35,745 bases of DNA. Origin: a virus. Taxonomy: Duplodnaviria; Heunggongvirae; Uroviricota; Caudoviricetes. Location of the stretch: the IMG/VR virus record IMGVR_UViG_2548876857_000008; one strand, given 5' to 3'. Each line of letters begins with the position of its first letter. Position 1 is the first letter of the stretch. The translations under genes were made by a program, and so were the position numbers. Below the pieces are notes generated by a model that was not told where the DNA came from, did no database searches, and was given only the letters and a program-made list of their open reading frames with translations. Positions 802-35,745 of the stretch are shown one piece after another.

Positions 802-855
802 TCATTCCTCCGTGAGGCGGTTATGACAGGCACAACCGCTGGATAATCAATGTGG

Positions 856-1149: not shown

Positions 1150-1411
1150 TTACTACCCCCAACCATTCAGCCAGTCGCGCCAGCTTTTTCGCTTTGCGAT
1201 AATCGATTAGCTTTTCCATACCGTTCTGCCGGAACTGTTCGATCATGATTTCCACATCAGCCATTTCATCCGCCAGCACAGCTTCGTCACAGAAGCCTGT
1301 CAAACCACGCGCGGTTGCGGCGCTGAGTTCGGCTGCTTCCTCGGCTAGCTTCGCCAGTTGTTTCTCCGGCCCCCACTTGCGTAAGGCTGCACGGTAGATA
1401 AGCGTTTTCAT
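1133..1411 (-). CDS. MazG-like nucleotide pyrophosphohydrolase (small all-alpha NTP-PPase)
   Basis: 92 aa with acidic motifs LAEEAAELSAA and DEMADVEIMIEQF typical of MazG/HisE-type NTP pyrophosphatases. GGAGG precedes the ATG at 1411. Confidence 0.55.
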   Translation of the reverse strand: MKTLIYRAALRKWGPEKQLAKLAEEAAELSAATARGLTGFCDEAVLADEMADVEIMIEQFRQNGMEKLIDYRKAKKLARLAEWLGVVNDDVC

Positions 1412-1602
1412 GCGCCTACCTCCGTTGCCGGGGTTAATTCCATAGTGGGAATAAAGGCGTTATAAGCCTGCTCGCAGTGCGGACAGAGCAAAATTAAATT
1501 TACGCACCACTCCTTATATTCATCAGTCTGCAATAAGCTTGCTTGTTGAAAATCCAGTTCAGTGACTTCTTTTTTGCAGTACACACATTTAATCGTCGCC
1601 AT
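1408..1602 (-). CDS. hypothetical small zinc-binding protein
   Basis: Two Cys pairs (CVYCKK, CPHCEQ). ATG at 1602 with a GGGGGTG ribosome-binding site; the track start at 1617 is TTG. Coupled to its neighbours. Confidence 0.5.
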   Translation of the reverse strand: MATIKCVYCKKEVTELDFQQASLLQTDEYKEWCVNLILLCPHCEQAYNAFIPTMELTPATEVGA

Positions 1603-1603
1603 C

Positions 1604-2221
1604 TCACACCCCCGCAATATTCAGCACGACAGGCTGGTATTTATCGCTATCACCGACACGCTGATAAACCCGCACGTAACTTGTTGAGTTCACCACCTGC
1701 ACCGACTCGCCAATGGCCTCCATTGCCTTCAGCCAGCGTGGGTCGGTAATTTCATAGCGGCGCAGCGCCAGTACGCGCCCGGTGGAGATGTTGCCCTCTT
1801 TATCTTCTGCGAATGCTTTCTCCACGATGACCTTCAGCTCTGGCGTGGCCTGTGCCGTCCACTCATGCAGGCACTCATCAATCAAGTTACGGGCGGCTTG
1901 TAACCGTTCATCAAAGGCGATGTTTTCGGCAATCTGGCGCTGGATCTTGTAGCGACCATCAAATGAATGCAGGGTGATGTTGCCTTTCTTGCCTCCGGGG
2001 CGGGCATCATATTGTTCAACGGACAAATCAATAAACGCCTGTATATCGCCAAAACAGCGGTTTTTAAACTCAAGTAATTCAGCATTCATTTTCATTGCGT
2101 CGGCGACGATCTCCTTTACCAGCGCATCGCGTGCGCGGTCAATGGGCTTGATCATAGACTCGGGAACCAGACAACCTTTGGCGTCCTGCCAGTAACCTGC
2201 GGGGATAGTTTTTTCAGTCAT
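1604..2221 (-). CDS. hypothetical early protein (possibly DUF3164-like, as found in Mu-like phages)
   Basis: 205-aa ORF with ATG at 2221 and an upstream GGAG. Family assignment is from memory only. Confidence 0.55.
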   Translation of the reverse strand: MTEKTIPAGYWQDAKGCLVPESMIKPIDRARDALVKEIVADAMKMNAELLEFKNRCFGDIQAFIDLSVEQYDARPGGKKGNITLHSFDGRYKIQRQIAENIAFDERLQAARNLIDECLHEWTAQATPELKVIVEKAFAEDKEGNISTGRVLALRRYEITDPRWLKAMEAIGESVQVVNSTSYVRVYQRVGDSDKYQPVVLNIAGV

Positions 2222-2292
2222 AAAATAGTCTCCAGGGTGATTTCAGGGTGTGCGAAGCCTGCCGGGTTGACGGCATTTTTCTGCGACCTGAA

Positions 2293-2388
2293 TTAATTAA
2301 ATAAGGCTATGAATATAAAAATCAGTGTAGTTATAGCGCTGGCCCATAATACAAAACGGTCAGCCAGCGATATCTTGCGGTATTGCAT
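2293..2388 (-). CDS. candidate small hydrophobic peptide (31 aa) downstream of B
   Basis: Hand-translated MQYRKISLADRFVLWASAITTLIFIFIALFN. ATG at 2388-2386 preceded by GGAAAGGA; TAA at 2295-2293. Below the ORF-track size cut-off. Confidence 0.3.
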   Translation of the reverse strand: MQYRKISLADRFVLWASAITTLIFIFIALFN

Positions 2389-2423
2389 CACGTCCTTTCC
2401 GGTTAATTTGTGAAATACCATTT

Positions 2424-3548
2424 TCACACTCCTTTAATCACATCCGCATTCACCACCGGCACGCCGATATCAGCGGCCAGATTCATTGCGGCGATAACCA
2501 GATTCCCCAGCGCCAGCGGATAAAGCAGACTGACGTCACCGCGTCGGGATGAATTACATAATCGGGCGCGGATAGCATCGGCGGTGCTATCATCCAGCAC
2601 CTCGGAAACACCTTTCCCGGTACGCTGAAATTTGAACGCCAGAAACGCTTCCAGATAGTTATCCAGCGGCAGCAGTTCGACGACCTCGCAGCGCTGTACC
2701 ACTTCGCGCACCTCCTGATTACGTTCAGAAAGTTTCAGCTTTAGCTCCGGCTGGCCAATCAACACCACCGACAGCAGTTTTTTAAAGCCGTCCTCCAGCT
2801 CAAAGAACCGCTTCAAATGCTTGAGCGTCGGCACCGGTAGCGAGTGCGCCTCTTCAATAACCAGACAATGTGAGAACCCGGCGCGGGCCGACTCTTTCAG
2901 CACCCGGTGCAACTGGCGGTAACGGGCCTCCTGCGAGCGTTTGACGTTCTCCAGCGGTGCGATGGTGTTGATGATGGCCTCGGCAATCGACGCCGCTTTC
3001 AGAGTTTTGCCTTTGGCGTCGTTGTCTTCCATCGCAATGATGTACGGTTCGATGAGGATAACTGGCGCGTTTTCACGGTTGATGCGATCAGCCAGGTCAC
3101 GGCGTAGCGTGGTTTTCCCTGCGCCGGATTCGCCAACTACGGCGATAAATCCGCCATGTCGCGCGGTCTGATACAGTGCTTCACGCACGTAGCGGATATC
3201 TGGCGTGGTGAACACGTCGTCCGCACTCTGCATAACCTCATCGGCGAACGGGTCGCGGAACAACCCAAAATGCTTCTTCGCCGCTGGATTTAATACCTGT
3301 TTTGCCAGTAACATATTTTCGTCCTCACTGGATGATGTACCGGTGCAGGCGGTGGCCGCCGTCTGCGCCTCCTTCAGTTCAATACCTTTTTCTGCAAAAA
3401 ATGTGCTGATGCGCTCCCGTAGTTCTTCTGTTTTCGGCCACAGGCCGTGATTAACCATCTGCGCGATAACCGCTGCGGAAACTCCGGTAGCCTGTGCTAC
3501 TGCTGCCTGAGTGATGCCACGCTGGCGCAACTGTTGTTTAATCTGCAT
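2424..3548 (-). CDS. MuB-like transposition ATPase (AAA+ target-DNA activator)
   Basis: N-terminal helix-turn-helix (GITQAAVAQATGVSAAVIAQ) and Walker A VVGESGAGKTT. Immediately downstream of the transposase, as in Mu. AGGGGGAG precedes the ATG at 3548. Confidence 0.85.
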   Translation of the reverse strand: MQIKQQLRQRGITQAAVAQATGVSAAVIAQMVNHGLWPKTEELRERISTFFAEKGIELKEAQTAATACTGTSSSEDENMLLAKQVLNPAAKKHFGLFRDPFADEVMQSADDVFTTPDIRYVREALYQTARHGGFIAVVGESGAGKTTLRRDLADRINRENAPVILIEPYIIAMEDNDAKGKTLKAASIAEAIINTIAPLENVKRSQEARYRQLHRVLKESARAGFSHCLVIEEAHSLPVPTLKHLKRFFELEDGFKKLLSVVLIGQPELKLKLSERNQEVREVVQRCEVVELLPLDNYLEAFLAFKFQRTGKGVSEVLDDSTADAIRARLCNSSRRGDVSLLYPLALGNLVIAAMNLAADIGVPVVNADVIKGV

Positions 3549-3557
3549 AACTCCCCC

Positions 3558-5303
3558 TTAACCGCCGACTACGTTCAGTTGCACTCGGGCGGTAAGCTGC
3601 TGCGCGGCGGCGTCCAGTTCTTCTTCCGCCACGCCTTCTGGCCAGCGTTTCACCAGTTCCTGATACAGTGCGACGTTCCATTCCGGCAACCGTGCTTTCA
3701 GCGCCTTCGCCGCCTCGACGTGAGTCAGACGCCGGGCTTCAACGCGTGGAGCGCGTACCGGGGAATCCTGACCACGACGCGGCAGGAACGCGGGCAGTTC
3801 GCTGTCGGTGATGGGTTTATACGGGTCAAGCCTGCCGCCGAACGGCAGCGCCTTCGCTTTACGCGCCGCAGCCGCGTCCGTCTCGTTATCTGTTCCGGTA
3901 ACAATCTGCTCAATCTGTTTAGCCGCAGTCTGCGCGGGTGTATCGGCGTGGCGCTTGTGATTCTGGCCCAGCACCGCCGCGCCTTCGGCAAAGCCGTATT
4001 CGTCCTTGCGGACTTCCTCCACCAGGTGAAAATACTCGTGGCCATCGTCACCGATGAGCACTACCTGCGCGGCATCGCTGCGCCACGGATTGCGGGTGAT
4101 CATCAGTTTTTCACCCACCATCACATCTGGCACGGTGGAGACGTCGTATTCCGTACCCTGAAACGACACGCGCAGCTTCGGCGTTATCTTGCGGCTTTCC
4201 GGCGCGGCAACAGCCAGTTCGCGGCAGACCTCCACCGATGGCGCTTTGATAAGCTGCTGCGCGGTGATGGTCATCCAGACGTTACTACGCGACTTGCCGT
4301 GGCGGGTGTGAATCGCGGTGGCGTTGAAGTGCTGCCGCCACAGGCGCGCTTTGGCGTTCAGTTCCTCCAGGCTGTGAACCGGCTGGAACTTCAGCCCCGG
4401 TTCAAAGCGGCGTTCGATAATGTCGCGCGCCTTTTCCACCTGCCCGGTGGCGCGGGCGTTGTGGGCTTTATGCGCCACCACGTCAATGCCCAGCGAACGA
4501 CAGAGGTTCTTCGTCATAGCGGCGGTGTTGGCCGAGCCGGGGTCGAGATACAACATATGCGGCACGCCGTGGAGCACATCCGCGCCGCCGCGCTCCTGCA
4601 TGGCATTGATGAGAACGGAACAGAGATTTTCGCCAGACTCCGCCCCCATCACGTATTCAACGTAGATCCAGCCGCTGGTATGGTCGGTCAGTTCATAGCT
4701 CCATACCCGGTCACTGGCGATACGTTGCAGGTTCTTCGGCTTGTTTTTGTAGAACGTCGCGCTGTCCATCACCTGTAACCCGCGCTGGCCGTTGCTGAGG
4801 TAGTACAGCGTGCAGAGCGAGGCGTCGATTTCCCAGACGTGATTGGGGTGCAGACTGGCAAGCTCCGTCACTGGCGCGGGCTGGCTGAGTTGATCCGGGT
4901 GCAGGCCGTAGCCACGCAGCGCCCGGATGATGGTGCTTTCTGACAATGGCACCCACTCGCCGCTTTCCTCATCCAGCCGCCCGGCGTCAATCTCGCCGTT
5001 GGCGCGTAACATCTCCACGGCATCAATGACGGAATACAGGCGCTTGCCGTTCTTACGGGTGGCTTCCGTCAGCGTAGCGGAAATCATCACCGCCTCATCG
5101 CGGGTCAGCGCGGTTTTTCCGGCGTCGGTGCGGCGCTTGCGTTTATCGGTCACGGCAACCTCCTTTATTCTGCGTAACAGCGTGGCGCGGGACAGGCCAA
5201 GTTCCGCGCAGGCGGCAGTGTAGATTGCGCCGCGTGCGCCATGCCCGGCCTGCCGTGCAGCCTGAGCAACAGCAACTAAGCGTTCGGTCATGACGGCGCT
5301 CAT
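3558..5303 (-). CDS. MuA-like DDE transposase (rve/integrase-core superfamily)
   Basis: N-terminal helix-turn-helix, then candidate D-D-E residues (HVWEIDAS, LYLDPGSANT, ATGQVEKARD; D to E spacing 36 aa). Lies between Ner and B. ATG at 5303 has a GGAAGG site 9 nt upstream; the track start at 5312 has zero spacing. Confidence 0.8.
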   Translation of the reverse strand: MSAVMTERLVAVAQAARQAGHGARGAIYTAACAELGLSRATLLRRIKEVAVTDKRKRRTDAGKTALTRDEAVMISATLTEATRKNGKRLYSVIDAVEMLRANGEIDAGRLDEESGEWVPLSESTIIRALRGYGLHPDQLSQPAPVTELASLHPNHVWEIDASLCTLYYLSNGQRGLQVMDSATFYKNKPKNLQRIASDRVWSYELTDHTSGWIYVEYVMGAESGENLCSVLINAMQERGGADVLHGVPHMLYLDPGSANTAAMTKNLCRSLGIDVVAHKAHNARATGQVEKARDIIERRFEPGLKFQPVHSLEELNAKARLWRQHFNATAIHTRHGKSRSNVWMTITAQQLIKAPSVEVCRELAVAAPESRKITPKLRVSFQGTEYDVSTVPDVMVGEKLMITRNPWRSDAAQVVLIGDDGHEYFHLVEEVRKDEYGFAEGAAVLGQNHKRHADTPAQTAAKQIEQIVTGTDNETDAAAARKAKALPFGGRLDPYKPITDSELPAFLPRRGQDSPVRAPRVEARRLTHVEAAKALKARLPEWNVALYQELVKRWPEGVAEEELDAAAQQLTARVQLNVVGG

Positions 5304-5305
5304 GG

Positions 5306-5605
5306 TCAGCATCCTTCCGGTAGTTCGGGAACTAACATCCAGTGGGTGATCTGTTTTGCCGGGTACGTTTCACTGGTGCAGTGAAACTCGCCATCAATAT
5401 AGTTAGCGGTTTCCACGCCGTAGCCATCACAGACCAGCACAAGGTCATAGTCACCAGGCAGTTGTGCGTCAGTGGCTATCCACGGTGAGGCCAGCGCATC
5501 CTTAAAAGCGACTCTCAGCAGTCGGCCACCGAGGATATCGGCGTTAAAGTGGTAACTCGGCTCCTGCGGAGCCTTAGCGAAATCAATAACTAATGTGCGG
5601 ATCAT
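5306..5605 (-). CDS. hypothetical early protein
   Basis: 99 aa; its ATG at 5605 overlaps the upstream stop (ATGA). Confidence 0.5.
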   Translation of the reverse strand: MIRTLVIDFAKAPQEPSYHFNADILGGRLLRVAFKDALASPWIATDAQLPGDYDLVLVCDGYGVETANYIDGEFHCTSETYPAKQITHWMLVPELPEGC

Positions 5606-6537
5606 GCGGCGTTCTCCTTATCGGTGGTCATCCAGTCCGGGCGTTCGATTTTAGGCGTGGGGTTTGTTACCCACTCCGGCGCGGCGTCACTGCGTGGTTC
5701 GACAGCAAGGCCAAACTCTTCACGCAGATAAACGGTGGCGCTGTCAATCTGGCATAACAGCCCGGTCATAAAGGCGTGAGGGTGCGTCTGAACCAGTGCC
5801 GAATGATGTTGATTCAGGACGGTAAAAGCTTCGTGGAGCTTGCCGCGAATAATGGCCTCGGCTTCGAAGGCAATAGCCATGACTTCCTTGCGCAACTGCT
5901 CGTCCTCCACATCCGGGGGCGGCGGCGCGATGCGGGATTTTTTGGCAAGCTGGGTGGAGAGGTTGTCGATTTTGCTGTTCTTGTCAGCCAGAACGCGGCG
6001 CTGGGCGTCGGCGTCCTCGCGAGCTTCACGCAGGGCGGCGCGGAGTTCGCGACTGGTCATACGGTCGATATCGTCGAGGGTTAGCCCGGCAACGGTGCCG
6101 CCTTCGGTCAGGGCAGTGAGTTCGTCGTCATCTTCTGCCATTAACTCGAATAGTTTGGTTTTACCCAAATGTGCCAGCGCTGGCATATTTGATTTCAGCG
6201 CTGGAGATAAATATTTGGTTGATGCCTGCATCATCCTTACTGACGTGCGATATGGTAAGCCCAGTTCCTTTTCAATAAGTTCGATAAACTCCCCATGCGG
6301 CTCATTCTCTTTCAGAATCACCAGGCGCTTACCCGCTTCCAGCATTGCCTCGGCGCTCTGCGACATATAAAACCGAGCCTCATGCACCACTCGGTCGCGC
6401 TCATACGGAAGGCCGTCGCCGAACTGCTGCATAATTTCGATGCGGTGTTCCGCCAGCGCGTTCAGGCTGACGTTCAGTTCAGTGTTCAGCGGTGCGTCCG
6501 GCACCAGTTCAACAGGTGGTGATTTTTGACGTGCCAT
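5602..6537 (-). CDS. hypothetical early protein (311 aa, acidic middle, coiled-coil-like centre)
   Basis: AAGGAG 7 nt before the ATG at 6537. No catalytic motif recognised. Confidence 0.55.
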   Translation of the reverse strand: MARQKSPPVELVPDAPLNTELNVSLNALAEHRIEIMQQFGDGLPYERDRVVHEARFYMSQSAEAMLEAGKRLVILKENEPHGEFIELIEKELGLPYRTSVRMMQASTKYLSPALKSNMPALAHLGKTKLFELMAEDDDELTALTEGGTVAGLTLDDIDRMTSRELRAALREAREDADAQRRVLADKNSKIDNLSTQLAKKSRIAPPPPDVEDEQLRKEVMAIAFEAEAIIRGKLHEAFTVLNQHHSALVQTHPHAFMTGLLCQIDSATVYLREEFGLAVEPRSDAAPEWVTNPTPKIERPDWMTTDKENAA

Positions 6538-6548
6538 TAACTTGCTCC

Positions 6549-6848
6549 TTAGCGACTGCCAGCCAGCAACCGCTGATTCATTTCATTCAGCCTGTCCTGA
6601 GCGCGTGTGACTTCCGTCGCGTGGGCGTGGGCGATTTGCAGCATCGCCATACTCATGGCGAAGCGCCCATTTTCCAGCCGTTGTACCAGTCCCTCTTCGA
6701 TCAGAGTGTCAGCGGCGCGGGTGATATTGGCCGGGGATTCATGCAACGCCGCCGCCAATTCGCCATTGGACAACCCAGTGAGCGAGTAGCCTTTCAGGGC
6801 TTTGAGTACGCGCAGGATACGTGCGCCGGAAGTAGAGGTGGGTTTCAT
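6549..6848 (-). CDS. winged-helix DNA-binding protein (IclR-N-type HTH)
   Basis: RILRVLKALKG...LSNGELAAALHESPANITRAADTLIEEGLVQR matches the IclR-type HTH pattern. ATGA overlap with the upstream gene. Confidence 0.55.
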   Translation of the reverse strand: MKPTSTSGARILRVLKALKGYSLTGLSNGELAAALHESPANITRAADTLIEEGLVQRLENGRFAMSMAMLQIAHAHATEVTRAQDRLNEMNQRLLAGSR

Positions 6849-7412: not shown

Positions 7413-7823
7413 ATGAACATAAAAGAAAGACTCAAAAAAATACTCGCTGACAAAGCGTTATCAATCACTGATGCTGCCGCACAGTGCGATATCCCATATC
7501 GTTCTCTACAAAACTATCTGCGTGGCGAGCGAGAACCAAATGCGGAGGCATTGATCTCAATAGGTACCCATTTGGGTATAAATATTGATTGGCTGCTCAC
7601 CGGCAGAGGAGGAATGTATCTGTCTGAACATGCGGATGTTTTGACTGAGCAGCCGGAATACAGCCATGCCGATTTGAAGTTACTGGAATTTTTGAATCAG
7701 TTGGAACCGGATGTACGAAAGGATTTGTTACGCAGTGCTGAAGAAAAACAGCGAGTGGCCGCCCTAGAAAAAAGATTAGAGGAATTGGCTTTAGAACTCG
7801 AAAGCCTAAAACGTTCGGCGTAA
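7413..7823 (+). CDS. XRE-family HTH repressor (c/cI-like)
   Basis: N-terminal HTH (LSITDAAAQCDIPYRSLQNYLRGEREPNAEALISIGTHLGINIDWLL) and coiled-coil C-terminus. Divergent from ner. No S24 peptidase domain. Confidence 0.7.
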   Translation: MNIKERLKKILADKALSITDAAAQCDIPYRSLQNYLRGEREPNAEALISIGTHLGINIDWLLTGRGGMYLSEHADVLTEQPEYSHADLKLLEFLNQLEPDVRKDLLRSAEEKQRVAALEKRLEELALELESLKRSA

Positions 7824-10697: not shown

Positions 10698-10758
10698 ACC
10701 CCTTTAAAAGCCTTCCTGCCTACCATTCCGCACACTGCCTCCATCACCCAATGGAGGC
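10693..10758 (+). promoter_or_regulatory. candidate late promoter element (dyad motif plus start-site hairpin) before the lysis genes
   Basis: CTTAAACCCCTTTAAAAGCC at 10693-10712. Perfect 8-bp hairpin GCCTCCAT/ATGGAGGC at 10737-10758 contains the GGAGG site and the first ATG. Confidence 0.45.
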
Positions 10759-10762
10759 ACTT

Positions 10763-11053
10763 ATGAAAACTTCTCTTTTCCCGCGTTTATCCGGCTGGCT
10801 GGTGGCATCGGTGGTGTTGTTCGCGCTGATTGCGCTGATTTCCCCGCAGCAGCTTCCGGTCGTTGTTTACAAACTGAGCCTGATCTCGCTGGCGGCGGTG
10901 CTGGGCTACTGGCTGGATCGCAGCCTGTTTCCCTATGCGCGGCCAAATTATTTTCAGTCAGCGGAAAATGAACAACGTCTCTTTGCCGCCGCCATGCTGC
11001 GCCGTGCGGTGATTGTCGCGGCGGTGTGTCTGGCCGTGGCGATGGGGCTGTAG
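10763..11053 (+). CDS. putative holin or lysis membrane protein
   Basis: 97 aa with two or three hydrophobic helices, immediately before the transglycosylase gene. ATG at 10763 has GGAGG 5 nt upstream; ATG at 10751 is an alternative. Confidence 0.4.
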   Translation: MKTSLFPRLSGWLVASVVLFALIALISPQQLPVVVYKLSLISLAAVLGYWLDRSLFPYARPNYFQSAENEQRLFAAAMLRRAVIVAAVCLAVAMGL

Positions 11054-11055
11054 CC

Positions 11056-11790
11056 ATGACGCTGCATATGTACTGGCCGCAGGTTGTCTGGTCTGTGACG
11101 GCGCTGCTGGGGATGGGAATGGCGCTGGCGCGTCACGGGCAACCGCGCACCGATAAACACAATTTCTGGTACCAGTCGCTGGCGGTACTGATTGCAGGCT
11201 GGCTGCTCTGGTGCGGCGGTTTTTTTAGCCAGGCCAATGCCGCCGAACCGCCCGCTTCCGCCAAACCTTACCGCGCCGAACTGGTGCGTAATGCCCGCGC
11301 GGTATGGGGGATGGATGCGCCTGTCGCCGATTTCGCCGGGCAGTTCCAGCAGGAATCCGACTGGAATCCCGCCGCCCGTTCACCCGTTGGTGCGCAGGGG
11401 ATGGCGCAGTTTATGCCCTCCACTAGCGACTGGATCAGCCAACTGCTTCCCGAACTCCGCGCCCGAGAGCCGTTTAACCCGTCGTGGGCCATCCGGGCGC
11501 TGGTGCAATACGACCAGTGGTTGTGGCAGCGCGTCAGCGCCCGCGATGGTTGCCAGCGAATGGCATTCACCTTAAGCGCCTATAACGGCGGTTTAGGCTG
11601 GGTGAACCGCGATAAAAAGCTGGCGGCGCAGCGCGGGCTGGATGCCGCCGTCTGGTTTGACGCGGTGGCGACGGTCAACGCCGGGCGCAGCGCCGCCAAC
11701 TGGCGCGAGAACCGGGGTTATCCGCAACGCATCCTGTACCAGAACGCGCCGCGCTATCTGTCATGGGGAGGGGCTAACTGTGTTCGATAA
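11056..11790 (+). CDS. endolysin, lytic transglycosylase (SLT domain) with N-terminal hydrophobic segment(s)
   Basis: SLT signature QQESDWNPAARSPVGAQGMAQFMPST (catalytic Glu, AQGxMQ). N-terminus VVWSVTALLGMGMALA and LAVLIAGWLLWCGGFFSQANA suggests a signal-anchor or signal peptide. Confidence 0.75.
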   Translation: MTLHMYWPQVVWSVTALLGMGMALARHGQPRTDKHNFWYQSLAVLIAGWLLWCGGFFSQANAAEPPASAKPYRAELVRNARAVWGMDAPVADFAGQFQQESDWNPAARSPVGAQGMAQFMPSTSDWISQLLPELRAREPFNPSWAIRALVQYDQWLWQRVSARDGCQRMAFTLSAYNGGLGWVNRDKKLAAQRGLDAAVWFDAVATVNAGRSAANWRENRGYPQRILYQNAPRYLSWGGANCVR

Positions 11791-21428: not shown

Positions 21429-21655
21429 AATTTATTTACCGCGGCCCGGCCAGCGGCGTGACGTTAGCCGATGGCGCAGAAGTGCTGCTCTGGCCAGAGC
21501 ATGAGGTGGAACTGCCGGAAGATCTGGACTATGTGCAGACGCTGCTGGCGCTGAAGCATCTCACACCAGCGCCAGTTGAACCCGAAGTGGTGCCTGAACC
21601 TGAACCACAACCCCTGAAGGGTAAAAAAGAGAAGGAGACAACCAGTGGCAGCTAA
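21425..21655 (+). CDS. hypothetical small protein (Mu gp38 position)
   Basis: 76 aa with a Pro/Glu-rich C-terminus. Confidence 0.45.
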   Translation: MKFIYRGPASGVTLADGAEVLLWPEHEVELPEDLDYVQTLLALKHLTPAPVEPEVVPEPEPQPLKGKKEKETTSGS

Positions 21656-23060
21656 TTATTTACACGGCGTCGAGACTATCGAGATCGAACGCGGCCCGCG
21701 CCCGGTGCGTACCGTTAAGTCGGCGGTGATTGGTCTTGTAGGAACGGCTCCGGCTGGCCCGATTAACACATCGGTATTGTGCCTGTCAGAGAAAGACGCG
21801 GCGCAGTTCGGCTCGCAGGTTTCCGGGTTCAGTATCCCGCAGGCACTGGATGCGATTTATGACCACGGCGCGGGAACGGTGGTGGTAATTAACGTGGCCG
21901 ATCCGGCAAAGCACAGCGTAACGGCCTCTACCATCGCACGTCGGGTTGATGATAATCATCAGATCAGGCTGGACTATGGCGCGGTCAGTAATGTCGTTTT
22001 GAAGGTGTCGGGCGCGAGTTCAGATTTAAGCCCGGCAAATTATACCGTTGATGCCGGAACTGGCGTTGTTACATGCCCGACGGTTAACGCAGGCGACACG
22101 CTGTTTGCCACATATCGTTATATCGATCCGACAAAAATCACCGCTGCCGATATCATCGGCGCGATCAATGCCGCAGGCCAGCGTATCGGGATGAAGCTGC
22201 TGGAGGATACCTATAGTCTCTATGGTTTTAAACCGAAAATCCTGATCGCCCCGGTGTTCTGTACGCAAAAATCGGTCAGTACCGAGCTGATTGCCCTGGC
22301 GGAAAAGCTGGACGCTATCACCTATATCGATGCGCCAGTTGGCACGACCTTCAGCCAGGTGCTGGCAGGCCGTGGCGCATCCGGGACTATCAACTTCAAT
22401 ACCAGTTCCGAACGCGCCCGTCTGTGCTACCCGCACGTTAAGGTGTATGACTCTGTCACCGACAGCGAACGGCTGGAGCCGCTTTCCTCCCGCGCCGCTG
22501 GCCTGCGTGCCAAAGTGGATCTGGATAACGGTTTCTGGTGGAGCAACTCCAACCAGGAGATCCTCGGCATCACTGGTGTGGAACGTTCGCTGTCGGCGAT
22601 GATTGATGACCCGCAAAGCGAGGTGAATCAACTGAACGAAAACGGCATCACCACCGTTTTCAACAGCTACGGCACCGGGATGCGACTGTGGGGCAACCGT
22701 ACCGCCGCCTGGCCGACCGTTACCCATATGCGCAACTTTGAAAATGTGCGGCGCACCGGGGATGTGATTAACGAGTCGATCCGTTACTTCAGTCAGCAGT
22801 ATCTGGATATGCCGATTAACCAGGCGCTGATTGACGCGCTAACCGAATCGGTGAATGCCTATGGCCGCAAGCTGATTGGCGACGGCGCATTGCTGGGCTT
22901 CGAGTGCTGGTATGACCCGGCGCGTAATGAGCAGACCGAGCTGGCCGCTGGCCATCTGCTGCTCAGTTACAAATATACGCCGCCTCCGCCGCTGGAACGG
23001 CTGACGTTTGAGACGGAAATCACTTCGGAATATCTGGTTAATCTGGAAGGTAAACGCTGA
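21645..23060 (+). CDS. contractile tail sheath protein
   Basis: 471 aa; GTG start 8 nt after AAGGAG. Size and position before the tube gene match a myovirus sheath. Confidence 0.75.
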   Translation: MAANYLHGVETIEIERGPRPVRTVKSAVIGLVGTAPAGPINTSVLCLSEKDAAQFGSQVSGFSIPQALDAIYDHGAGTVVVINVADPAKHSVTASTIARRVDDNHQIRLDYGAVSNVVLKVSGASSDLSPANYTVDAGTGVVTCPTVNAGDTLFATYRYIDPTKITAADIIGAINAAGQRIGMKLLEDTYSLYGFKPKILIAPVFCTQKSVSTELIALAEKLDAITYIDAPVGTTFSQVLAGRGASGTINFNTSSERARLCYPHVKVYDSVTDSERLEPLSSRAAGLRAKVDLDNGFWWSNSNQEILGITGVERSLSAMIDDPQSEVNQLNENGITTVFNSYGTGMRLWGNRTAAWPTVTHMRNFENVRRTGDVINESIRYFSQQYLDMPINQALIDALTESVNAYGRKLIGDGALLGFECWYDPARNEQTELAAGHLLLSYKYTPPPPLERLTFETEITSEYLVNLEGKR

Positions 23061-23584
23061 TGGGCGGAAAAATTGAAGTTAACCGTATTACCAACGCCAA
23101 TATCTATATCAATGGTAATAACCTGCTGGGCCGCGCGGAGGAGATTAAGCTGCCGGATATCAGCATGATTATGCAGGAGCATAAGGCGCTGGGGATGGTC
23201 GGCAAGATTGAGTTGCCCGCTGGGTTCGACAAACTGGAGGGCGAAATCAAGTGGAACAGCTTCTATCGCGAAGTGATGCGCCATGCGGCTAACCCGTATA
23301 AGTCGCTGGCGTTGCAGTGCCGTTCGTCTATCGACCGCTATAACTCAACGGGGCGTATCGATGAAATCCCGCTGGTGACGCACCTGACGGTAATGTTCAA
23401 GAAGAATCCGCTGGGGACGTTTAAGCAACATGAGAACCCGGATTTTTCCAGTGCCTTTAGCTGCACCTATATCAAGCAGGTGGTGGACGGCGAGACGCTG
23501 CTGGAACTGGATTATCTGGCGAATATCTTCAAAGTGAATGGCGTGGATCAGTTGAGCACCTATCGCGCCAATATCGGCGGTTAA
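23060..23584 (+). CDS. tail tube protein
   Basis: 174 aa immediately after the sheath gene (TGATG overlap). Confidence 0.7.
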   Translation: MGGKIEVNRITNANIYINGNNLLGRAEEIKLPDISMIMQEHKALGMVGKIELPAGFDKLEGEIKWNSFYREVMRHAANPYKSLALQCRSSIDRYNSTGRIDEIPLVTHLTVMFKKNPLGTFKQHENPDFSSAFSCTYIKQVVDGETLLELDYLANIFKVNGVDQLSTYRANIGG

Positions 23585-23589
23585 CCACT

Positions 23590-23660
23590 CATTAAAGCTG
23601 TTTAATACTGTTTGTTTCATCCCTCCTCAATACTGTCCTCAGTTCAACACTGAGGACAGT
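23590..23660 (+). promoter_or_regulatory. inter-operon element: CATTAAAGCTGTTTAATACTG motif plus perfect 12-bp hairpin before the tail chaperone gene
   Basis: Motif at 23590-23610. Hairpin ACTGTCCTCAGT-TCAAC-ACTGAGGACAGT at 23632-23660 holds the GAGGA site in its 3' arm, 4 nt before the ATG at 23665. No U-tract follows. Confidence 0.5.
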
Positions 23661-23664
23661 CACC

Positions 23665-23967
23665 ATGACAGACACATTCAAACTGCAATACCCCTTCACC
23701 GCACCCTCCGGGCAGCGTATCGACGAACTGCAACTGACTCGCCTGAAGGTCAAAGATATGCGTGCGGCTCGACGTATCAGCGATAAACCTGAAGACTGGG
23801 ACGAACCGCTACTGGCGGCGATGACCGGACTGGTGCCGGAAGATTTGGCCGAAATGGATCTTGCTGACTATCAGGCGTTGCAGAAACGATTTCAGAACAT
23901 GCTTGGGCTGGGCGGCGAACCCGCAGCAACTGTGGCAGGCGATGGCGCTGCTGGCACGGTGGTTTAG
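23665..23967 (+). CDS. tail assembly chaperone (P2 gpE / lambda G-like)
   Basis: 100 aa between the tube and tape-measure genes. An overlapping +1-frame ORF extends to 24067. Confidence 0.6.
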   Translation: MTDTFKLQYPFTAPSGQRIDELQLTRLKVKDMRAARRISDKPEDWDEPLLAAMTGLVPEDLAEMDLADYQALQKRFQNMLGLGGEPAATVAGDGAAGTVV

Positions 23968-24041
23968 GTTTCAACCAGGGGAAATTGACAATCTGGCGGT
24001 CGGGGATTTTGAACGCTGGCTTGATGAGGCCAGCGCCCAGA

Positions 24042-24320
24042 TTAAGCGTGAGAACGGCGGCGGTTGAGTACCCATTCGGTGATGCTGCCGACAAGGGCGA
24101 ACAGGAAGGCCAGCAGGGAAATGGCCGGGCTAAATAACCAGCCTGCCAGTGCGGTCAGCAACAGTACACCAACGCTGCCCACACCAATCATCAAAGTTGC
24201 CGCCAGCCCATCATGGCAGTTATGCAGGGTATAGCTGACCACATGAAACAGCGCCCAACCATCCACCGCCACAATCGCGGCGATCAATAGTCCTTTAAAC
24301 AGGGTTAATGCGTTGTTCAT
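24042..24320 (-). CDS. small integral membrane protein encoded antisense within the tail module (moron candidate)
   Basis: 92 aa with three predicted TM helices and a basic C-terminus (NRRRSHA). AAGAGG sits 4-5 nt before the ATG at 24320. It is the only minus-strand gene in the late region. Confidence 0.5.
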   Translation of the reverse strand: MNNALTLFKGLLIAAIVAVDGWALFHVVSYTLHNCHDGLAATLMIGVGSVGVLLLTALAGWLFSPAISLLAFLFALVGSITEWVLNRRRSHA

Positions 24321-24360
24321 AACGCCTCTTTTTTATTGTGGTTTTCCGGGAGTGTAAAGC

Positions 24361-27135
24361 GTGGCTGCTGAATTTTCAATCGGTGTTCTTATTAGTGGCG
24401 CAGTCACTGGCGCATTTCGTTCTGCTATTGGAGGAACCCAGCGAGCGTTAAACGATCTCCAATCCACCACGCAGCGATTGCAAAACCGTCAGGCCGCGCT
24501 GACGCAGGCGATGACACGTTACGGGCAGGCAGGTATTAGCAGTACATCCCGGCTCAACAACGAATTACAGCAAGTCAGTCGCACAATGGCGCGGCTGGAA
24601 AGCCAGCAAAATAAATTATCCAGCGCAACGGCGCGTAGCCAGGCGATGCGTTCGCAGCGGATGGATCTTTACGCCCAGGGTGCAGAGACCTACGCGCTGG
24701 CCAGAACGATGTCGGCCCCTCTGGTGTCGTCAGTGAAAACCTATGCGGGGTTTGAATCAGGGCTGCGGGATATTGCCGTGACCGGGGATCTGGACAGTAA
24801 ACAGGAAGCGGCGATCGATAACGCCATCCGTCAGGCAGCGGGTAAAGTCAACCAGTTGCAGGAAACGCTACTCGGTGGCGTGAATCAACTGGTAGCCGAT
24901 GGTATGAACCCGGAGAAAGCGGCGGGAATGGTGGATTTGCTTGGTAAAACCGCCACGGCCACCAAGGCTGATATGACCGATCTGGCAAAAATGACTTTCG
25001 CTTTTAGCGATGCCTTGAAGATTAGCGATGGAAAGGAGATGCAGGAAGCCTTTGCAATGGCAGCGGTCGGAGCAAAGACCGGCTCCTTTGAACTGAAAGA
25101 TATGGCAAAGGCATTGCCTACCCTGACAAAAAGCTTTGCGGCTAAAGGTATTACGGGTAAGGAAGCGATTAAAGAAATTGTCGCCTCTCTCGAAGCTGCA
25201 AAAGGCTCTGGTTCGGCAGAAGAAGCCGTGACCAATATGACCAACTGGATGGGCGCAATGACGCGCGGCGATACCGTCAAGAAATATGAAAAGGCGGGCG
25301 TAAATTATGAAGCGTCGATGAAAGATTATGTCGCCAAAGGTTATTCGCAATATGAAGCCTCGCTGATGATTGCTGACCGCTTTATTAAAGGTAAAGGCGA
25401 TGCCTTTATAAAACAGTGGCAGGAAGCGGGGGCACGTGGCGACGGTGAGTCGCAACAGAAGTTGATGGAGTCGTTTGGTCTGTCGGAGGTTTTTACCGAT
25501 ATTCAAACCGTCAATCATCTGCTTTCCATGCGTCAGAACTGGGATCAATATCAGTCGAATAAAGCCAAAATGGGTGACCCGGCATCACAGAATGTGCTGG
25601 ATACTGATTTTAATAAGCAAAACGATACCCTGGAAGCCCGCTGGCGAAGCTCGCAGGTAGCGATGAATGAGATGGCAATCAGTATCGGTAGTTCTCTACG
25701 CCCGGCACTGGTCGAATTATCGGAAAGTCTGCTGCCAGTAATGAGTTCTTTTGCAAAATGGCTTTCAGCTAACCCGGAGATGGTGGCGAATATAGCCAAA
25801 CTACTGGCCGGATTTATTGCATTCAAAGCGGCGACGGTCGGTAGCAAGCTGGCTCTGAATATGATGTTGTCGCCGTTTGTGGATTGTATTAAAGCGGTAA
25901 CGTTGCTTAACACGAAATGGCTGCTTCTGAAAACAGCCTTTTCGTCTGGCGGCAAACTGGCAGGCATCACTAAGTTGTTCGGCTCGCTAGCGCGTGGTGC
26001 CTTGTCATTAGGCAAAATCCTTGCCGGTGGATTAATGCGTGGCGTGATGATGGCCGCCCGTGCCGTAATGTTTCTGGGCCGTGCGCTGCTGATGAATCCC
26101 ATCGGGTTGATTATCACTGGCATCGCGGCAGCCGCGTATCTGATTTATCGCTACTGGGGGCCCATTTCCGGCTTCTTTAAACGGCTGTGGGCGCAGGTCA
26201 CGGTAGCGTTTCGCGGGGCGTGGAGCGGCATCAAAGGTATCTGGAGTGGCGTGTCGGGCTGGTTCTCTGGTATCTGGGCGCAAATCAAAACCGCATTCAG
26301 CGGTGGGATTGGCGGCGTGGCAAAGCTGATTACCAACTGGTCGCCGCTGGGCCTGTTCTATAAAGCTTTTGCCGGAGTGATGAAATACTTCGGTATCGAT
26401 ATGCCGAAGAACTTTACCGATTTTGGCGGTAATCTGATTAACGGTCTGATGAACGGTATCGGCAATGCGCTGACTGCTGCGAAAGAGACGGTCGTTAACT
26501 TTGGTAACTCGATTTCAGGCTGGTTTAAGGAGACGCTGGGCATTCACTCCCCGAGCCAGGTGTTTGCCGGGTTCGGCGACAATATCGCGCAAGGGGCCGC
26601 TATCGGTATCAACCGCACCGCCCCGGATGCGATTTCCGCCAGCCAACAGATGGCGGCGGCGTTAATTCCCCCGTTGCTGGATATCCGCGTTCCGGGTCTG
26701 GATGTTGCCGCAATACCACAGCGACCACCTGTTGCGGGTGGCATCGCGCCTCAACTCAACCCACTGCTGCCGAAAGTCGCACCGCCCACCATTGTGCCAG
26801 CCCCCACTGCGGCGGGTATGGCGCTGGCTGGGGCGGCGGGCGCGGTGTTATCTCGCCGCAAACCGCTGTCGCCAGTGCCACCAAAACCCGCCGTACCTGC
26901 CGTTCCTGAACTGCCGAAAAGTACCGCACCAGCCGCCAAAGGCCGCAATGCCAGTGCGCGTGTGCCGGGGCAGTCATCCGGGGTGAATGTGACCTTTGCG
27001 CCGCAAATTACCATCAAAGGCGCGGCATCGACGACCGAGGGCGAAATCACCTCTGCGCTGAAACTGAGCCTGCACGAACTTGAAAAGATGATGGAGCGGA
27101 TTATGGCGCGTCGTGAACGCCGGGAGTATGCATAA
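24361..27135 (+). CDS. tail tape measure protein
   Basis: 924 aa, largely helical, with central hydrophobic Gly/Ala segments and a Pro/Ala-rich C-terminal region. GTG start after GGGAG. Follows the chaperone gene. Confidence 0.85.
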   Translation: MAAEFSIGVLISGAVTGAFRSAIGGTQRALNDLQSTTQRLQNRQAALTQAMTRYGQAGISSTSRLNNELQQVSRTMARLESQQNKLSSATARSQAMRSQRMDLYAQGAETYALARTMSAPLVSSVKTYAGFESGLRDIAVTGDLDSKQEAAIDNAIRQAAGKVNQLQETLLGGVNQLVADGMNPEKAAGMVDLLGKTATATKADMTDLAKMTFAFSDALKISDGKEMQEAFAMAAVGAKTGSFELKDMAKALPTLTKSFAAKGITGKEAIKEIVASLEAAKGSGSAEEAVTNMTNWMGAMTRGDTVKKYEKAGVNYEASMKDYVAKGYSQYEASLMIADRFIKGKGDAFIKQWQEAGARGDGESQQKLMESFGLSEVFTDIQTVNHLLSMRQNWDQYQSNKAKMGDPASQNVLDTDFNKQNDTLEARWRSSQVAMNEMAISIGSSLRPALVELSESLLPVMSSFAKWLSANPEMVANIAKLLAGFIAFKAATVGSKLALNMMLSPFVDCIKAVTLLNTKWLLLKTAFSSGGKLAGITKLFGSLARGALSLGKILAGGLMRGVMMAARAVMFLGRALLMNPIGLIITGIAAAAYLIYRYWGPISGFFKRLWAQVTVAFRGAWSGIKGIWSGVSGWFSGIWAQIKTAFSGGIGGVAKLITNWSPLGLFYKAFAGVMKYFGIDMPKNFTDFGGNLINGLMNGIGNALTAAKETVVNFGNSISGWFKETLGIHSPSQVFAGFGDNIAQGAAIGINRTAPDAISASQQMAAALIPPLLDIRVPGLDVAAIPQRPPVAGGIAPQLNPLLPKVAPPTIVPAPTAAGMALAGAAGAVLSRRKPLSPVPPKPAVPAVPELPKSTAPAAKGRNASARVPGQSSGVNVTFAPQITIKGAASTTEGEITSALKLSLHELEKMMERIMARRERREYA

Positions 27136-34971: not shown

Positions 34972-35745
34972 ATGAAAACATTACCCATTATTCCGTGGCC
35001 CGGCGGTAAGCGTCGTCTGGCCAAAAAGTTATTACCGTTATTTCCTGAGCACCAGTGTTATGTAGAGCCATTCTGCGGCGGTGCAGCCTTGTATTTCATG
35101 AAGGAGCCGGTTGAAGCTGAAGTCCTGAACGATATCAACGGCGAACTGGTGAATCTGTACCGTGTGGTTAAAAATCATCTTGAAGAGTTTGTGCGCCAGT
35201 TCAAGTGGGCGTTGAGCAGCAGGCAGATTTTTGAATGGTCGAAAATGACCATCCCGGAGACGCTAACTGATATTCAGCGTGCAGCGCGGTTTTATTATCT
35301 CCAGAAGCAATCATTCGGAGGGAAAGTGGAATCACAGACGTATGGAACGGCGACCACTTCTGCACCACGGCTTAATCTGCTAAGGCTGGAAGAGGAGTTG
35401 AGCGCCGCCCATTTGCGGCTATCACGCACGTTTGTAGAACATTTACCGTGGCGTACCTGCATTGAGAAGTATGATCGCCCGCACACACTGTTCTATTGCG
35501 ATCCCCCGTATTGGGGAACGGAGGGCTACGGTGTTGAATTTGGACTGGAGCAGTACACCCAACTTGCAGAGTTGGCCAGAACGATAAAAGGCAGGATGTT
35601 GATCAGTGTGAACGATATCCCGGAGATGCGTGAAACCTTTGCGGACTTGTCGATTGATACGGTAGATATTCGCTATACGTTGAGCGGTGGGCCTAATGCT
35701 AATCGCTCGAAAGTCAGCCGTGAGCTGGTCATTCGTAACTGGTAA
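34972..35745 (+). CDS. DNA N6-adenine methyltransferase, Dam-like (D12 class)
   Basis: N-terminal PWPGGKRRL (AdoMet-binding motif I) and catalytic DPPY (CDPPYWGTEGYG). Complete ORF; its TAA ends at the window edge. Confidence 0.85.
   Translation: MKTLPIIPWPGGKRRLAKKLLPLFPEHQCYVEPFCGGAALYFMKEPVEAEVLNDINGELVNLYRVVKNHLEEFVRQFKWALSSRQIFEWSKMTIPETLTDIQRAARFYYLQKQSFGGKVESQTYGTATTSAPRLNLLRLEEELSAAHLRLSRTFVEHLPWRTCIEKYDRPHTLFYCDPPYWGTEGYGVEFGLEQYTQLAELARTIKGRMLISVNDIPEMRETFADLSIDTVDIRYTLSGGPNANRSKVSRELVIRNW

What the first reader, a model, noticed from the sequence alone, without database searches (positions are those of the whole stretch)
24042..24320. Antisense membrane-protein gene inserted between the tail chaperone and tape-measure genes
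This is the only minus-strand gene in about 25 kb of plus-strand late genes. It has its own good ribosome-binding site and encodes a 92-aa protein with three predicted TM helices. That fits a moron, a lysogeny-expressed accessory gene with its own promoter. Its 3' end overlaps the putative chaperone frameshift extension by 26 nt.
Basis: partly seen in the sequence, partly recalled or inferred. Interest (0 to 1): 0.5.

Follow-up and report, generated by a model that had tools for sequence, protein, structure and literature searches.

The report
Antisense membrane-protein gene in tail operon
A real, conserved but dispensable gene for a small three-helix membrane protein sits backwards between the tail-chaperone and tape-measure genes of a BcepMu-like prophage; it is probably made by the dormant prophage, perhaps to keep other phages out, but its function is untested.

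Summary
ORF 24042-24320 (-) encodes 92 aa, has an AAGAGG ribosome-binding site, overlaps the chaperone extension E' by exactly 26 nt, and is the only minus-strand gene in the ~25-kb late region.

It is a real gene. Against homologues 77-79% identical, dN/dS is 0.20-0.22 in this frame only. Relatives in eight other enterobacterial genera (28-44% identity) keep its place, orientation, length and motifs. AlphaFold2 predicts three helices (pLDDT 86).

The window is a BcepMu-like transposable prophage. The closest tail module outside Salmonella/E. coli (Lelliottia) lacks the gene, as do about 45 other loci. Two Brenneria loci carry a copy broken by a 92-nt deletion. One Salmonella allele is only 40% identical inside ~90%-identical flanks.

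Unrelated small hydrophobic antisense ORFs fill the same gap in BcepMu, phiE255, Pseudomonas phage Bise and several betaproteobacterial prophages.

A sigma-70-like promoter (TTGAAA-17-TACACT, 24379-24351) lies over the tape-measure start and keeps its position in all 16 gene-bearing loci. No terminator, atypical GC content or match to any known family was found.

Best reading: a prophage-expressed inner-membrane accessory protein, placed like HK97 gp15. Expression and function are untested.

The parts
24042..24320 (-). orf92: CDS for a 92-aa protein with three predicted transmembrane helices, a short N-terminus and a basic C-terminus (NRRRSHA)
   Evidence: ORF. dN/dS and frame test. Homologues. 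AF2 three-helix model. Hydropathy.
24325..24330 (-). Shine-Dalgarno AAGAGG, 4 nt upstream of the ATG
   Evidence: Read from the sequence. Identical in L001, L002 and L003.
24351..24379 (-). Candidate sigma-70 promoter: -35 TTGAAA (24379-24374), 17-nt spacer, -10 TACACT (24356-24351). The inferred transcription start is near 24344. The promoter overlaps the tape-measure SD (GGGAG, 24348-24352) and start codon (GTG, 24361).
   Evidence: Found by the scan. A T(T/G/A)GA(A/G)A-17/18-TAnnnT pattern sits at the same position in all 16 gene-bearing loci, and is weaker or absent in many gene-less loci. This is a consensus match only. The -35 is also constrained by tape-measure codons for F-S-I.
24042..24067 (.). 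26-nt dual-coding overlap. The orf92 C-terminus (L)NRRRSHA* is read antisense to the E' C-terminus IKRENGGG*.
   Evidence: The E' tail QIKRENG is conserved whether or not the antisense gene is present, so the orf92 tail and stop codon are overprinted on E'.
23665..23967 (+). Tail assembly chaperone E (PF10109), upstream neighbour
23942..24067 (+). Conserved part of the chaperone extension E'. This reading frame is open from 23861 and is the +1 frame relative to E. RefSeq names the equivalent CDS in E. coli A35 'GpE family phage tail protein'.
24361..27135 (+). Tape measure protein (PF10145), downstream neighbour. Its initiation region carries the antisense promoter candidate.
24310..24335 (+). 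Weak hairpin (GCGTT-GTTCAT-AACGC) followed by a T-run on the plus strand. On the minus strand it is the complement of the orf92 SD and start codon. Significance is unknown.

Best explanation
orf92 is a real accessory gene of a BcepMu-like transposable prophage. It encodes a 92-aa inner-membrane protein with three helices, inferred to sit N-terminus out and basic C-terminus in.

It lies backwards inside the late tail operon, between the chaperone E/E' and the tape measure. Its candidate sigma-70 promoter overlaps the tape-measure translation start, and its last 8 codons and stop are overprinted on the end of E'.

Inferred mechanism:
1. In a lysogen the late operon is silent, and the antisense promoter makes the protein constitutively.
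2. After induction, convergent late transcription runs through the gene and turns it down. This is the 'noncontiguous operon' logic described for phi80 taiEcA.
3. The most likely job of the protein is at the inner membrane of the lysogen, blocking genome entry of superinfecting phages. HK97 gp15 does this from the same chaperone/tape-measure junction.

Shown: the gene is real, under purifying selection, a predicted membrane protein, dispensable, fast-evolving and allele-swapped, and the slot is conserved.

Inferred: promoter use, lysogen-specific expression, topology and the exclusion function.
For: The gene is real:
- Frame-specific pN/pS of 0.29 (p = 7e-7), no stops, and codon-position differences of 17/7/29.
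- dN/dS of 0.20-0.22, against 0.02-0.13 for the sheath, tube, E and tape-measure genes.
- 29 protein clusters, all Enterobacterales, and 14 representatives among 1.84 billion proteins.
- Syntenic antisense homologues in Xenorhabdus, Brenneria, Serratia, Pectobacterium, Dickeya, Symbiopectobacterium and a Plautia stali (stink bug) symbiont; a Sodalis endosymbiont protein also matches the family profile.
- AF2 predicts three helices at pLDDT 86.

The gene is accessory:
- It is absent, with a gap of 3-105 nt, from the closest tail module outside Salmonella/E. coli (Lelliottia L007), from the phage records KP12 and PhiKM, and from about 30 loci in all.
- About 15 further loci have an unrelated ~200-nt non-coding gap instead.
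- Two Brenneria loci carry a copy broken by a 92-nt frame-breaking deletion.

The gene evolves in a conflict-like way:
- Allele P0014 is 40% identical while its tube, E and tape-measure neighbours are 89-97% identical.
- The divergence has sharp edges, at the E' stop and at codon 13.

The slot is conserved:
- Unrelated antisense hydrophobic ORFs of 73-98 aa fill the same gap in BcepMu, phiE255 (annotated 'membrane protein'), phage Bise and several betaproteobacterial loci.

Promoter:
- TTGAAA-17-TACACT, with a TAnnnT -10 at the same position in all 16 gene-bearing loci.

Precedents:
- HK97 gp15 lies between the chaperone and tape-measure genes, inserts in the inner membrane and blocks genome entry in a way that depends on the phage tail (PMC3594210; layout).
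- phi80 taiEcA is an antisense, prophage-expressed gene interrupting the late operon, and it is down-regulated when late transcription is switched on (PMC11364771).
Against: - There are no expression data. The promoter is only a consensus match, and both hexamers overlap sequence also constrained by the tape-measure SD and N-terminal codons. Some gene-less relatives keep a similar motif.
- No minus-strand terminator was found.
- No similarity to any known exclusion or defence protein: PADLOC gave no hit, Pfam and NCBIfam gave none, hhalign against HK97 gp15 gave nothing, and Foldseek against viral structures gave nothing at E <= 0.001.
- The orf92 allele type does not track the tape-measure N-terminus (L002: tape measure 91%, orf92 40%). 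That is not what a strictly tape-measure-matched excluder would predict.
- High AF2 confidence is common for hydrophobic helices, so it is weak evidence.
Confidence: 0.5

Rival explanations
1. Lysogenic-conversion or housekeeping membrane factor unrelated to phage exclusion, for example envelope stress tolerance, modulation of a transporter, or a host-interaction trait. The expression logic would be the same (prophage-expressed, antisense to the late operon) but the target would differ.
For: The evidence for a real, dispensable, membrane-located, probably prophage-expressed gene is the same. Many morons encode envelope proteins with non-defence roles (PMC3594210). No defence-family match was found.
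Against: Rapid divergence and allele replacement within conserved flanks are more typical of genes in conflict with other phages. So is the repeated filling of this junction by unrelated small membrane proteins. The position matches HK97 gp15.
Confidence: 0.2
2. The protein acts in the lytic cycle. Possibilities are a membrane factor linked to tail assembly, tape-measure handling or lysis timing (holin- or antiholin-like: about 90 aa, 3 TM, basic C-terminus), or protection of the induced cell from re-infection.
For: The slot next to the chaperone and tape measure is conserved across Gamma- and Betaproteobacteria. Size and predicted topology resemble class I holins (comparison from general knowledge).
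Against: The gene is antisense to the late transcript, so late transcription should oppose its expression. The gene is missing from the phage records KP12 and PhiKM, so it is not needed to build a virion. The phage has its own holin (PF13272, 10751-11053) and SLT endolysin. There is no holin-family match.
Confidence: 0.13
3. A type-I-toxin-like or regulatory antisense unit. Either the hydrophobic peptide is toxic and is held in check by the overlapping transcripts, or the main product is the antisense RNA or transcriptional interference itself. In the second case the unit would tune chaperone frameshifting or tape-measure expression, or insulate the silent late operon.
For: The promoter candidate sits directly on the tape-measure SD and start codon. 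The 3' end overlaps E', and downstream transcription would cover the frameshift region. Relatives without the gene often carry hairpins or terminator-like elements in the same gap, which suggests a regulatory junction.
Against: Purifying selection acts on the protein sequence, and conserved motifs (MIGGG, LQPAI) persist across genera, so the protein matters and not only the RNA. At 92 aa with three TM helices it is larger than typical type I toxins. No Rfam match was found.
Confidence: 0.1
4. A chance ORF in a non-coding spacer between E' and the tape-measure gene.
For: An open stretch of at least 92 codons arises in 15% of shuffles of this 319-nt gap. No family annotation exists.
Against: The synonymous excess is frame-specific and the ORF has no stops, whereas every other frame has 3-10. 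The ORF is retained with the same length and motifs down to 28% identity across genera. Hydrophobicity is consistent, with GRAVY of 0.8-1.5. The phage genome is otherwise tightly packed.
Confidence: 0.03

Closest known systems
HK97 gp15 moron (superinfection exclusion; YebO-like)
   Same: A small inner-membrane protein gene inserted exactly between the tail assembly chaperone (G/GT equivalent) and the tape-measure gene of a temperate phage. It is dispensable for the virion. It is expressed from the prophage and blocks genome entry in a tail-dependent manner (PMC3594210; layout).
   Different: HK97 gp15 is 62 aa, lies on the same strand as the late genes and has its own annotated terminator. 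orf92 is 92 aa with three TM helices, is antisense, overlaps E' and has no terminator that was found. There is no sequence similarity and no YebO or other Pfam match. The host phage is a contractile-tailed Mu-like phage, not a lambdoid siphovirus. An exclusion phenotype has not been tested here.
phi80 taiEcA and 'noncontiguous operon' defence genes
   Same: A gene in the opposite orientation interrupts a phage late operon. It is constitutively expressed from the prophage, and its level falls when late transcription is switched on (PMC11364771). orf92 has the same geometry.
   Different: Tai proteins inhibit tail assembly. In phages their genes lie mostly upstream of the packaging module, and some are paired with a counter-defence gene (PMC11364771). 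orf92 is a predicted membrane protein, no partner gene was identified, and homology to Tai was not tested.
phiE255 gp17 'membrane protein' and the antisense ORFs of BcepMu, vB_E433 and Pseudomonas phage Bise
   Same: Same slot (E' to tape measure), same antisense orientation, similar size (80-96 aa) and hydrophobic character, all in the same phage lineage (Bcepmuvirus-like). In BcepMu versus phiE255 the antisense frame is the conserved one: 3 aa changes against about 13 in the plus frame.
   Different: No detectable sequence homology to orf92 (hhalign probability below 1%). They fall into separate families. None has been characterised.
Lambda bor
   Same: A prophage-expressed envelope-protein gene of a temperate phage. 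From general knowledge, bor is transcribed opposite to the lambda late operon.
   Different: A different protein class (lipoprotein) at a different genome position. This comparison rests on memory and was not tested here.

Membership tests
Moron (Juhala/Hendrix sense) | Extra gene present in one phage and absent from the same junction in close relatives | tested here: met
   Absent from Lelliottia L007 (tube 93%, E 89% identical), from KP12 and PhiKM, and from about 45 loci in all. Present in 16 loci.
Moron (Juhala/Hendrix sense) | Own promoter | tested here: inconclusive
   TTGAAA-17-TACACT at 24379-24351 keeps its position in all 16 gene-bearing loci. It is a consensus match only and overlaps the constrained tape-measure initiation region.
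Moron (Juhala/Hendrix sense) | Own terminator | tested here: not met
   No minus-strand terminator-like site lies downstream of 24042 in the scan of 23500-24900.
Moron (Juhala/Hendrix sense) | Base composition different from the neighbouring genes | tested here: not met
   GC is 0.548 against 0.552 for the plus-strand region. GC3 is 0.63, within the range of the neighbouring genes.
Moron (Juhala/Hendrix sense) | Expressed from the repressed prophage | not testable with these tools
   Needs RNA-seq or a reporter assay in a lysogen.
HK97 gp15 / YebO family | Sequence homology to gp15 or YebO | tested here: not met
   hhalign of A7 against HK97 gp15 gave probability 0.3%. No Pfam hit at E <= 0.1.
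HK97 gp15 / YebO family | Location between the tail chaperone and tape-measure genes; membrane protein | tested here: met
   The orientation is opposite to that of gp15.
HK97 gp15 / YebO family | Blocks genome entry of superinfecting phage | not testable with these tools
   Needs plating and DNA-entry assays.
Noncontiguous operon | A gene on the opposite strand flanked by co-directional genes of one operon | tested here: met
   E/E' and the tape-measure gene are on the plus strand on either side. There is no other gap in the late region.
Noncontiguous operon | Overlapping antisense transcripts with reciprocal regulation | not testable with these tools
   Needs strand-specific transcript mapping.
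Known anti-phage defence systems (PADLOC) | Match to a defence-protein model | tested here: not met
   No families at E <= 1 for orf92 or for P0014.
Holins | Match to a holin family, with late co-expression alongside the endolysin | tested here: not met
   No holin Pfam or PHROG match. The phage's own holin (PF13272) and SLT endolysin lie at 10751-11790. orf92 is antisense to the late operon.

The most novel reading that the evidence does not exclude
The junction between the chaperone extension E' and the tape measure in BcepMu-like transposable phages may be a lineage-wide, dedicated antisense slot. At least three unrelated families of small membrane proteins have been installed there. Each is overprinted on the end of E' and driven from a promoter embedded in the tape-measure initiation region. 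Under this reading the slot is a built-in switch that couples a prophage-state membrane function (probably exclusion of phages that inject through the inner membrane) to silencing by late tail transcription. The alleles would be swapped as cassettes in an arms race.
Probability: 0.3. Interest if true: 0.6.

Novelty: new member of a known kind. Interest (0 to 1): 0.42.

Why it matters
If the protein is made by lysogens and excludes phages, it would add a new, sequence-unrelated family to the few known inner-membrane blockers of genome entry. It would also be the first for Mu-like or P2-tailed phages of Salmonella, E. coli and plant-pathogenic Enterobacterales.

The repeated filling of one antisense slot by unrelated small membrane proteins would show that the chaperone/tape-measure junction is a general hotspot for such genes. 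That hotspot would extend beyond HK97, and would also occur in an antisense, 'noncontiguous operon' form.

On the practical side, the analysis suggests that BcepMu gp43 in the reference record is a shadow ORF of such a gene.

Tried and rejected
- Megablast of the locus against the phage collection: no match.
- tblastn of orf92 against phages: only chance hits, E >= 3.
- Pfam, PADLOC and NCBIfam: nothing.
- PHROGs: only phrog_25743 at E = 0.03, function unknown.
- Foldseek against BFVD: nothing at E <= 0.001. A three-helix bundle is not discriminating.
- Rfam on 23500-24600: only chance hits, so no support for a structured-RNA reading.
- hhalign of the family profile against the slot occupants of BcepMu, L060 and Bise, and against HK97 gp15: no homology. 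They are therefore treated as positional analogues, not family members.
- blastn of gene-bearing gaps against the ~200-nt gaps of Pectobacterium and Lonsdalea loci: unrelated, so these are not decayed copies.
- Shuffle test of ORF length: not significant on its own.
- Literature searches for BcepMu, phiE255 and BcepMu-like prophages found no description of this gene.

Full report
**What the window is.** The window is a BcepMu-like (Bcepmuvirus-type) transposable prophage of an enterobacterium.
- The early genes are on the minus strand (20-6848). They include an rve-domain transposase at 3558-5312.
- A CI-like HTH repressor lies at 7413-7823 on the plus strand.
- A holin (PF13272, 10751-11053) and an SLT endolysin follow.
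- An unbroken plus-strand morphogenesis block runs from there to the end of the window.
- The tail genes are P2-like: sheath 21645-23060, tube 23060-23584 (PF04985), chaperone E 23665-23967 (PF10109) and tape measure 24361-27135 (PF10145).
- The tube protein is 68% identical to BcepMu gp40 and 81-82% identical to the tube proteins of phages KP12 and PhiKM; PhiKM is classified in Bcepmuvirus.
- An E. coli prophage (strain A35) is 86% identical in DNA over the locus and has the same gene order. It carries a DDE transposase at one end and com/mom at the other.

**The observation.**
- ORF 24042-24320 (-) is 92 codons long with an ATG start.
- AAGAGG lies 4 nt upstream of the ATG.
- The chaperone extension E' ends with TGA at 24065-24067, so the overlap is exactly 26 nt. 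E' lies in the +1 frame relative to E; its conserved part starts at 23942. RefSeq annotates the equivalent in E. coli A35 as 'GpE family phage tail protein'.
- The orf92 C-terminus NRRRSHA* is the antisense reading of the E' C-terminus KRENGGG*.
- The E' tail QIKRENG is conserved whether or not the antisense gene is present. The last codons and the stop of orf92 are therefore overprinted on E'.
- Hydropathy and AlphaFold2 on a 21-sequence alignment (helices 2-34, 38-62 and 64-91; mean pLDDT 85.9) both support three transmembrane helices.
- The only charged cluster is the C-terminal RRR. By the positive-inside rule this suggests an N-out/C-in topology, which is an inference.
- The gap 24068-24360 is the only break in the plus-strand gene chain. 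In the RefSeq annotation of the A35 prophage, the homologue (WP_032217816.1, 'hypothetical protein') is the only minus-strand CDS between the repressor and mom.

**Is it more than a chance ORF?** Length alone does not show it: 15% of shuffles of the gap contain an open stretch of at least 92 codons. Conservation does.
- Against the A35 homologue the non-overlapping part is 79% identical in DNA. Differences fall 17/7/29 on codon positions 1/2/3. pN/pS is 0.29 (Fisher p = 7e-7) and there are no stops. The other five frames carry 3-10 stops, and only the third-position-sharing plus frame shows a comparable ratio.
- Nei-Gojobori dN/dS is 0.20-0.22 against homologues 77-79% identical. dS (0.64-0.84) is similar to that of the neighbouring genes, whose dN/dS is 0.02-0.13.
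- The family is small. It has 14 clusters by single-sequence search, 29 by profile search of 5.8 billion proteins, and 14 representatives among 1.84 billion. All are Enterobacterales and all are named 'hypothetical' or 'uncharacterized membrane protein'.
- The family keeps its length (88-98 aa) and shared motifs: N-terminal M-x-x-x-L, MIGGG in helix 2, LQPAI at the helix 2/3 turn, and a basic tail.

**Context in relatives.** I fetched 73 loci from species-representative genomes using the tube protein. I then located E, E', the tape-measure start and any occupant of the gap.
- Family members lie in the same place and the same antisense orientation, with the same overlap of the E' stop. They occur in Xenorhabdus (2 loci), Brenneria (2), Serratia, Pectobacterium (3), Symbiopectobacterium (2, one only distantly related), Dickeya and a Plautia stali (stink bug) symbiont. 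They also occur in three further Salmonella/E. coli prophages fetched through the proteins.
- About 30 loci have the tape-measure gene starting 3-105 nt after E'. These include Lelliottia L007, the closest tail module outside Salmonella/E. coli (tube 93%, E 89%), and the phage records KP12 and PhiKM.
- About 15 loci (Pectobacterium, Samsonia, Lonsdalea) have an unrelated ~200-nt non-coding gap containing hairpins.
- Two Brenneria loci carry a copy with a 92-nt internal, frame-breaking deletion.
- The gene is therefore dispensable and has been lost repeatedly.

**Fast evolution and allele swapping.**
- In Salmonella locus L002 the protein (P0014) is 40-42% identical to the window's. The flanking tube, E and tape-measure proteins are 97%, 89% and 89% identical.
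- The DNA alignment shows near-identity up to the E' stop. About 215 nt of strong divergence follow, and near-identity resumes from codon 13 through the 5' leader, the promoter region and the tape-measure start.
- This pattern indicates replacement of the gene body by a divergent allele, not in-place drift.
- GC content (0.548) and GC3 match the rest of the phage, so there is no sign of recent foreign origin.

**The slot is older than the family.**
- The same gap in BcepMu and phiE255 (Burkholderia), vB_E433, Pseudomonas phage Bise, and prophages of a betaproteobacterium L13, Brachymonas, Crenobacter, Neisseria flavescens and several Burkholderiaceae holds antisense hydrophobic ORFs. Most are 73-98 aa, with GRAVY of about 1.0-1.4.
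- The records of phiE255 ('membrane protein', gp17), vB_E433 and Bise annotate them.
- They show no detectable homology to orf92. They fall into at least two further families plus singletons.
- The BcepMu reference record instead annotates a plus-strand gp43 ('alternative gp42 C-terminus'). The 16 differences between BcepMu and phiE255 in this gap give 3 amino-acid changes in the antisense ORF. In the plus frame they give about 13 changes plus loss of the ATG. gp43 is therefore most likely a shadow ORF.

**Signals.**
- The promoter scan finds TTGAAA-17-TACACT on the minus strand at 24379-24351. It predicts a start near 24344 and a 24-nt leader.
- The -35 lies in tape-measure codons for F-S-I. 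The -10 lies between the tape-measure SD (GGGAG, 24348-24352) and its GTG start.
- All 16 gene-bearing loci have T(T/G/A)GA(A/G)A, a 17-18 nt spacer and TAnnnT at the same position, although the -10 sequence varies (TACACT, TATGAT, TATTCT, TACTCT, TAAACT, TAAGCT).
- Many gene-less loci have a poorer -10 or none (TAACCG, TATCCT). Close relatives of gene-bearing lineages keep it.
- This is suggestive but not proof, because the region is also constrained by tape-measure initiation.
- No minus-strand terminator was found, and there was no Rfam match.

**Function.**
- No family, defence-model or fold match gives a lead.
- The phage has its own holin and endolysin. Phage records without the gene exist (KP12, PhiKM). 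A structural or lysis role is therefore unlikely.
- The combination of features fits a prophage-expressed accessory gene engaged in conflict. The features are a small inner-membrane protein, dispensability, fast evolution, cassette swapping, antisense placement in a late operon, and a likely constitutive promoter.
- The closest functional precedent is HK97 gp15. It lies between the chaperone and tape-measure genes, inserts in the inner membrane and blocks genome entry in a manner that depends on the incoming phage's tail (PMC3594210).
- gp15 is on the sense strand, is 62 aa long, has its own terminator and is unrelated in sequence.
- The closest architectural precedent is phi80 taiEcA. It is a prophage-expressed gene set backwards in the late operon, and its level falls when late transcription is switched on. 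The authors describe this as a 'noncontiguous operon' (PMC11364771).
- I therefore propose constitutive expression in the lysogen, silencing by convergent late transcription after induction, and an exclusion role at the inner membrane.
- My confidence that the gene is real and accessory is above 0.9. For lysogen expression it is about 0.55, and for exclusion specifically about 0.3.
- One point against a strictly tape-measure-matched excluder is that allele type does not follow the tape-measure N-terminus.

**Verdict.** The 'moron' reading is partly supported. Presence/absence, the RBS and the promoter candidate fit it. The missing terminator, the typical composition and, above all, the lineage-wide conservation of the antisense slot do not fit a simple recent insertion. 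The gene is already annotated as a hypothetical protein in public genomes and belongs to a known kind, a prophage accessory membrane protein at the chaperone/tape-measure junction. The family itself is uncharacterised, and I did not find the slot pattern described in the papers I could search.

Noticed in passing
L004 (BcepMu NC_005882) 5522-5908 (+) versus 5612-5851 (-); L080 (phiE255) 3609-3851 (-): BcepMu gp43, annotated as a plus-strand 'alternative gp42 C-terminus', is probably a shadow ORF. BcepMu and phiE255 differ at 16 nt in this gap. Those differences give 3 aa changes in the antisense 80-aa membrane ORF, against about 13 changes and loss of the ATG in the plus frame. phiE255 annotates the antisense gene.
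   Followed up: partly
window 23632-23660: An 11-bp perfect stem-loop (ACTGTCCTCAG / CTGAGGACAGT, 7-nt loop) lies between the tube gene and chaperone E. The right arm contains the probable SD of E (GAGGA). In E. coli A35 the stem is kept while the loop differs. It may set the tube:chaperone expression ratio or stabilise the mRNA.
   Followed up: no
window 23861-24067 versus 23665-23967: The chaperone extension E' lies in the +1 frame relative to E (start coordinates are 1 and 2 modulo 3). From memory, P2 E/E' uses a -1 frame, as HK97 gp13/gp14 does. The shift must therefore be +1 or -2. No slippery site was identified.
   Followed up: no
window 24310-24335 (+): A weak hairpin (GCGTT-GTTCAT-AACGC) followed by CTCTTTTTTATT sits just upstream of the tape-measure gene on the late strand. 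On the minus strand the same bases form the orf92 SD and place its AUG in the loop. A T-rich tract in the same place is also present in Lelliottia L007, which lacks the gene.
   Followed up: no
L008-L017 (Pectobacterium), for example L008 5077-5276; L038 5319-5410: Relatives without the antisense gene often carry hairpins in the gap between E' and the tape-measure gene. One is a canonical terminator-like element right after E' (CCCGGCCAGC...GCTGGCCGTTTTT). This suggests that the junction is a regulatory point in the late operon.
   Followed up: no
L005 5022-5303, L006 5019-5300; many loci where E starts 400-1000 nt (about 2 kb in L050 and L058) after the tube gene: There is a second variable slot between the tube gene and chaperone E. 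KP12 and PhiKM carry an extra plus-strand gene of about 93 aa there. Several Pectobacterium, Photorhabdus and Pantoea loci have larger insertions. The window has only 80 nt there.
   Followed up: no
L082 3454-3744 (-), L073 4951-5436 (-), L061 5045-5506 (-), L072 1328-1774 (-): A second family occupies the slot in Pseudomonas phage Bise and Burkholderiaceae prophages. It has a polar N-terminal segment of about 35 aa, two hydrophobic helices and a C-terminal motif P-x-P-[FY]-A-W-x-A-R-[RK]-L-G. The Bise and L073 proteins are 86% identical.
   Followed up: partly
window 7413-7823 (+) and 34972-35745 (+): The CI-like HTH repressor is on the same strand as the late genes and is followed by several plus-strand genes before the holin. 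The last gene of the window is a D12-class adenine methyltransferase, where the E. coli A35 relative has com/mom.
   Followed up: no
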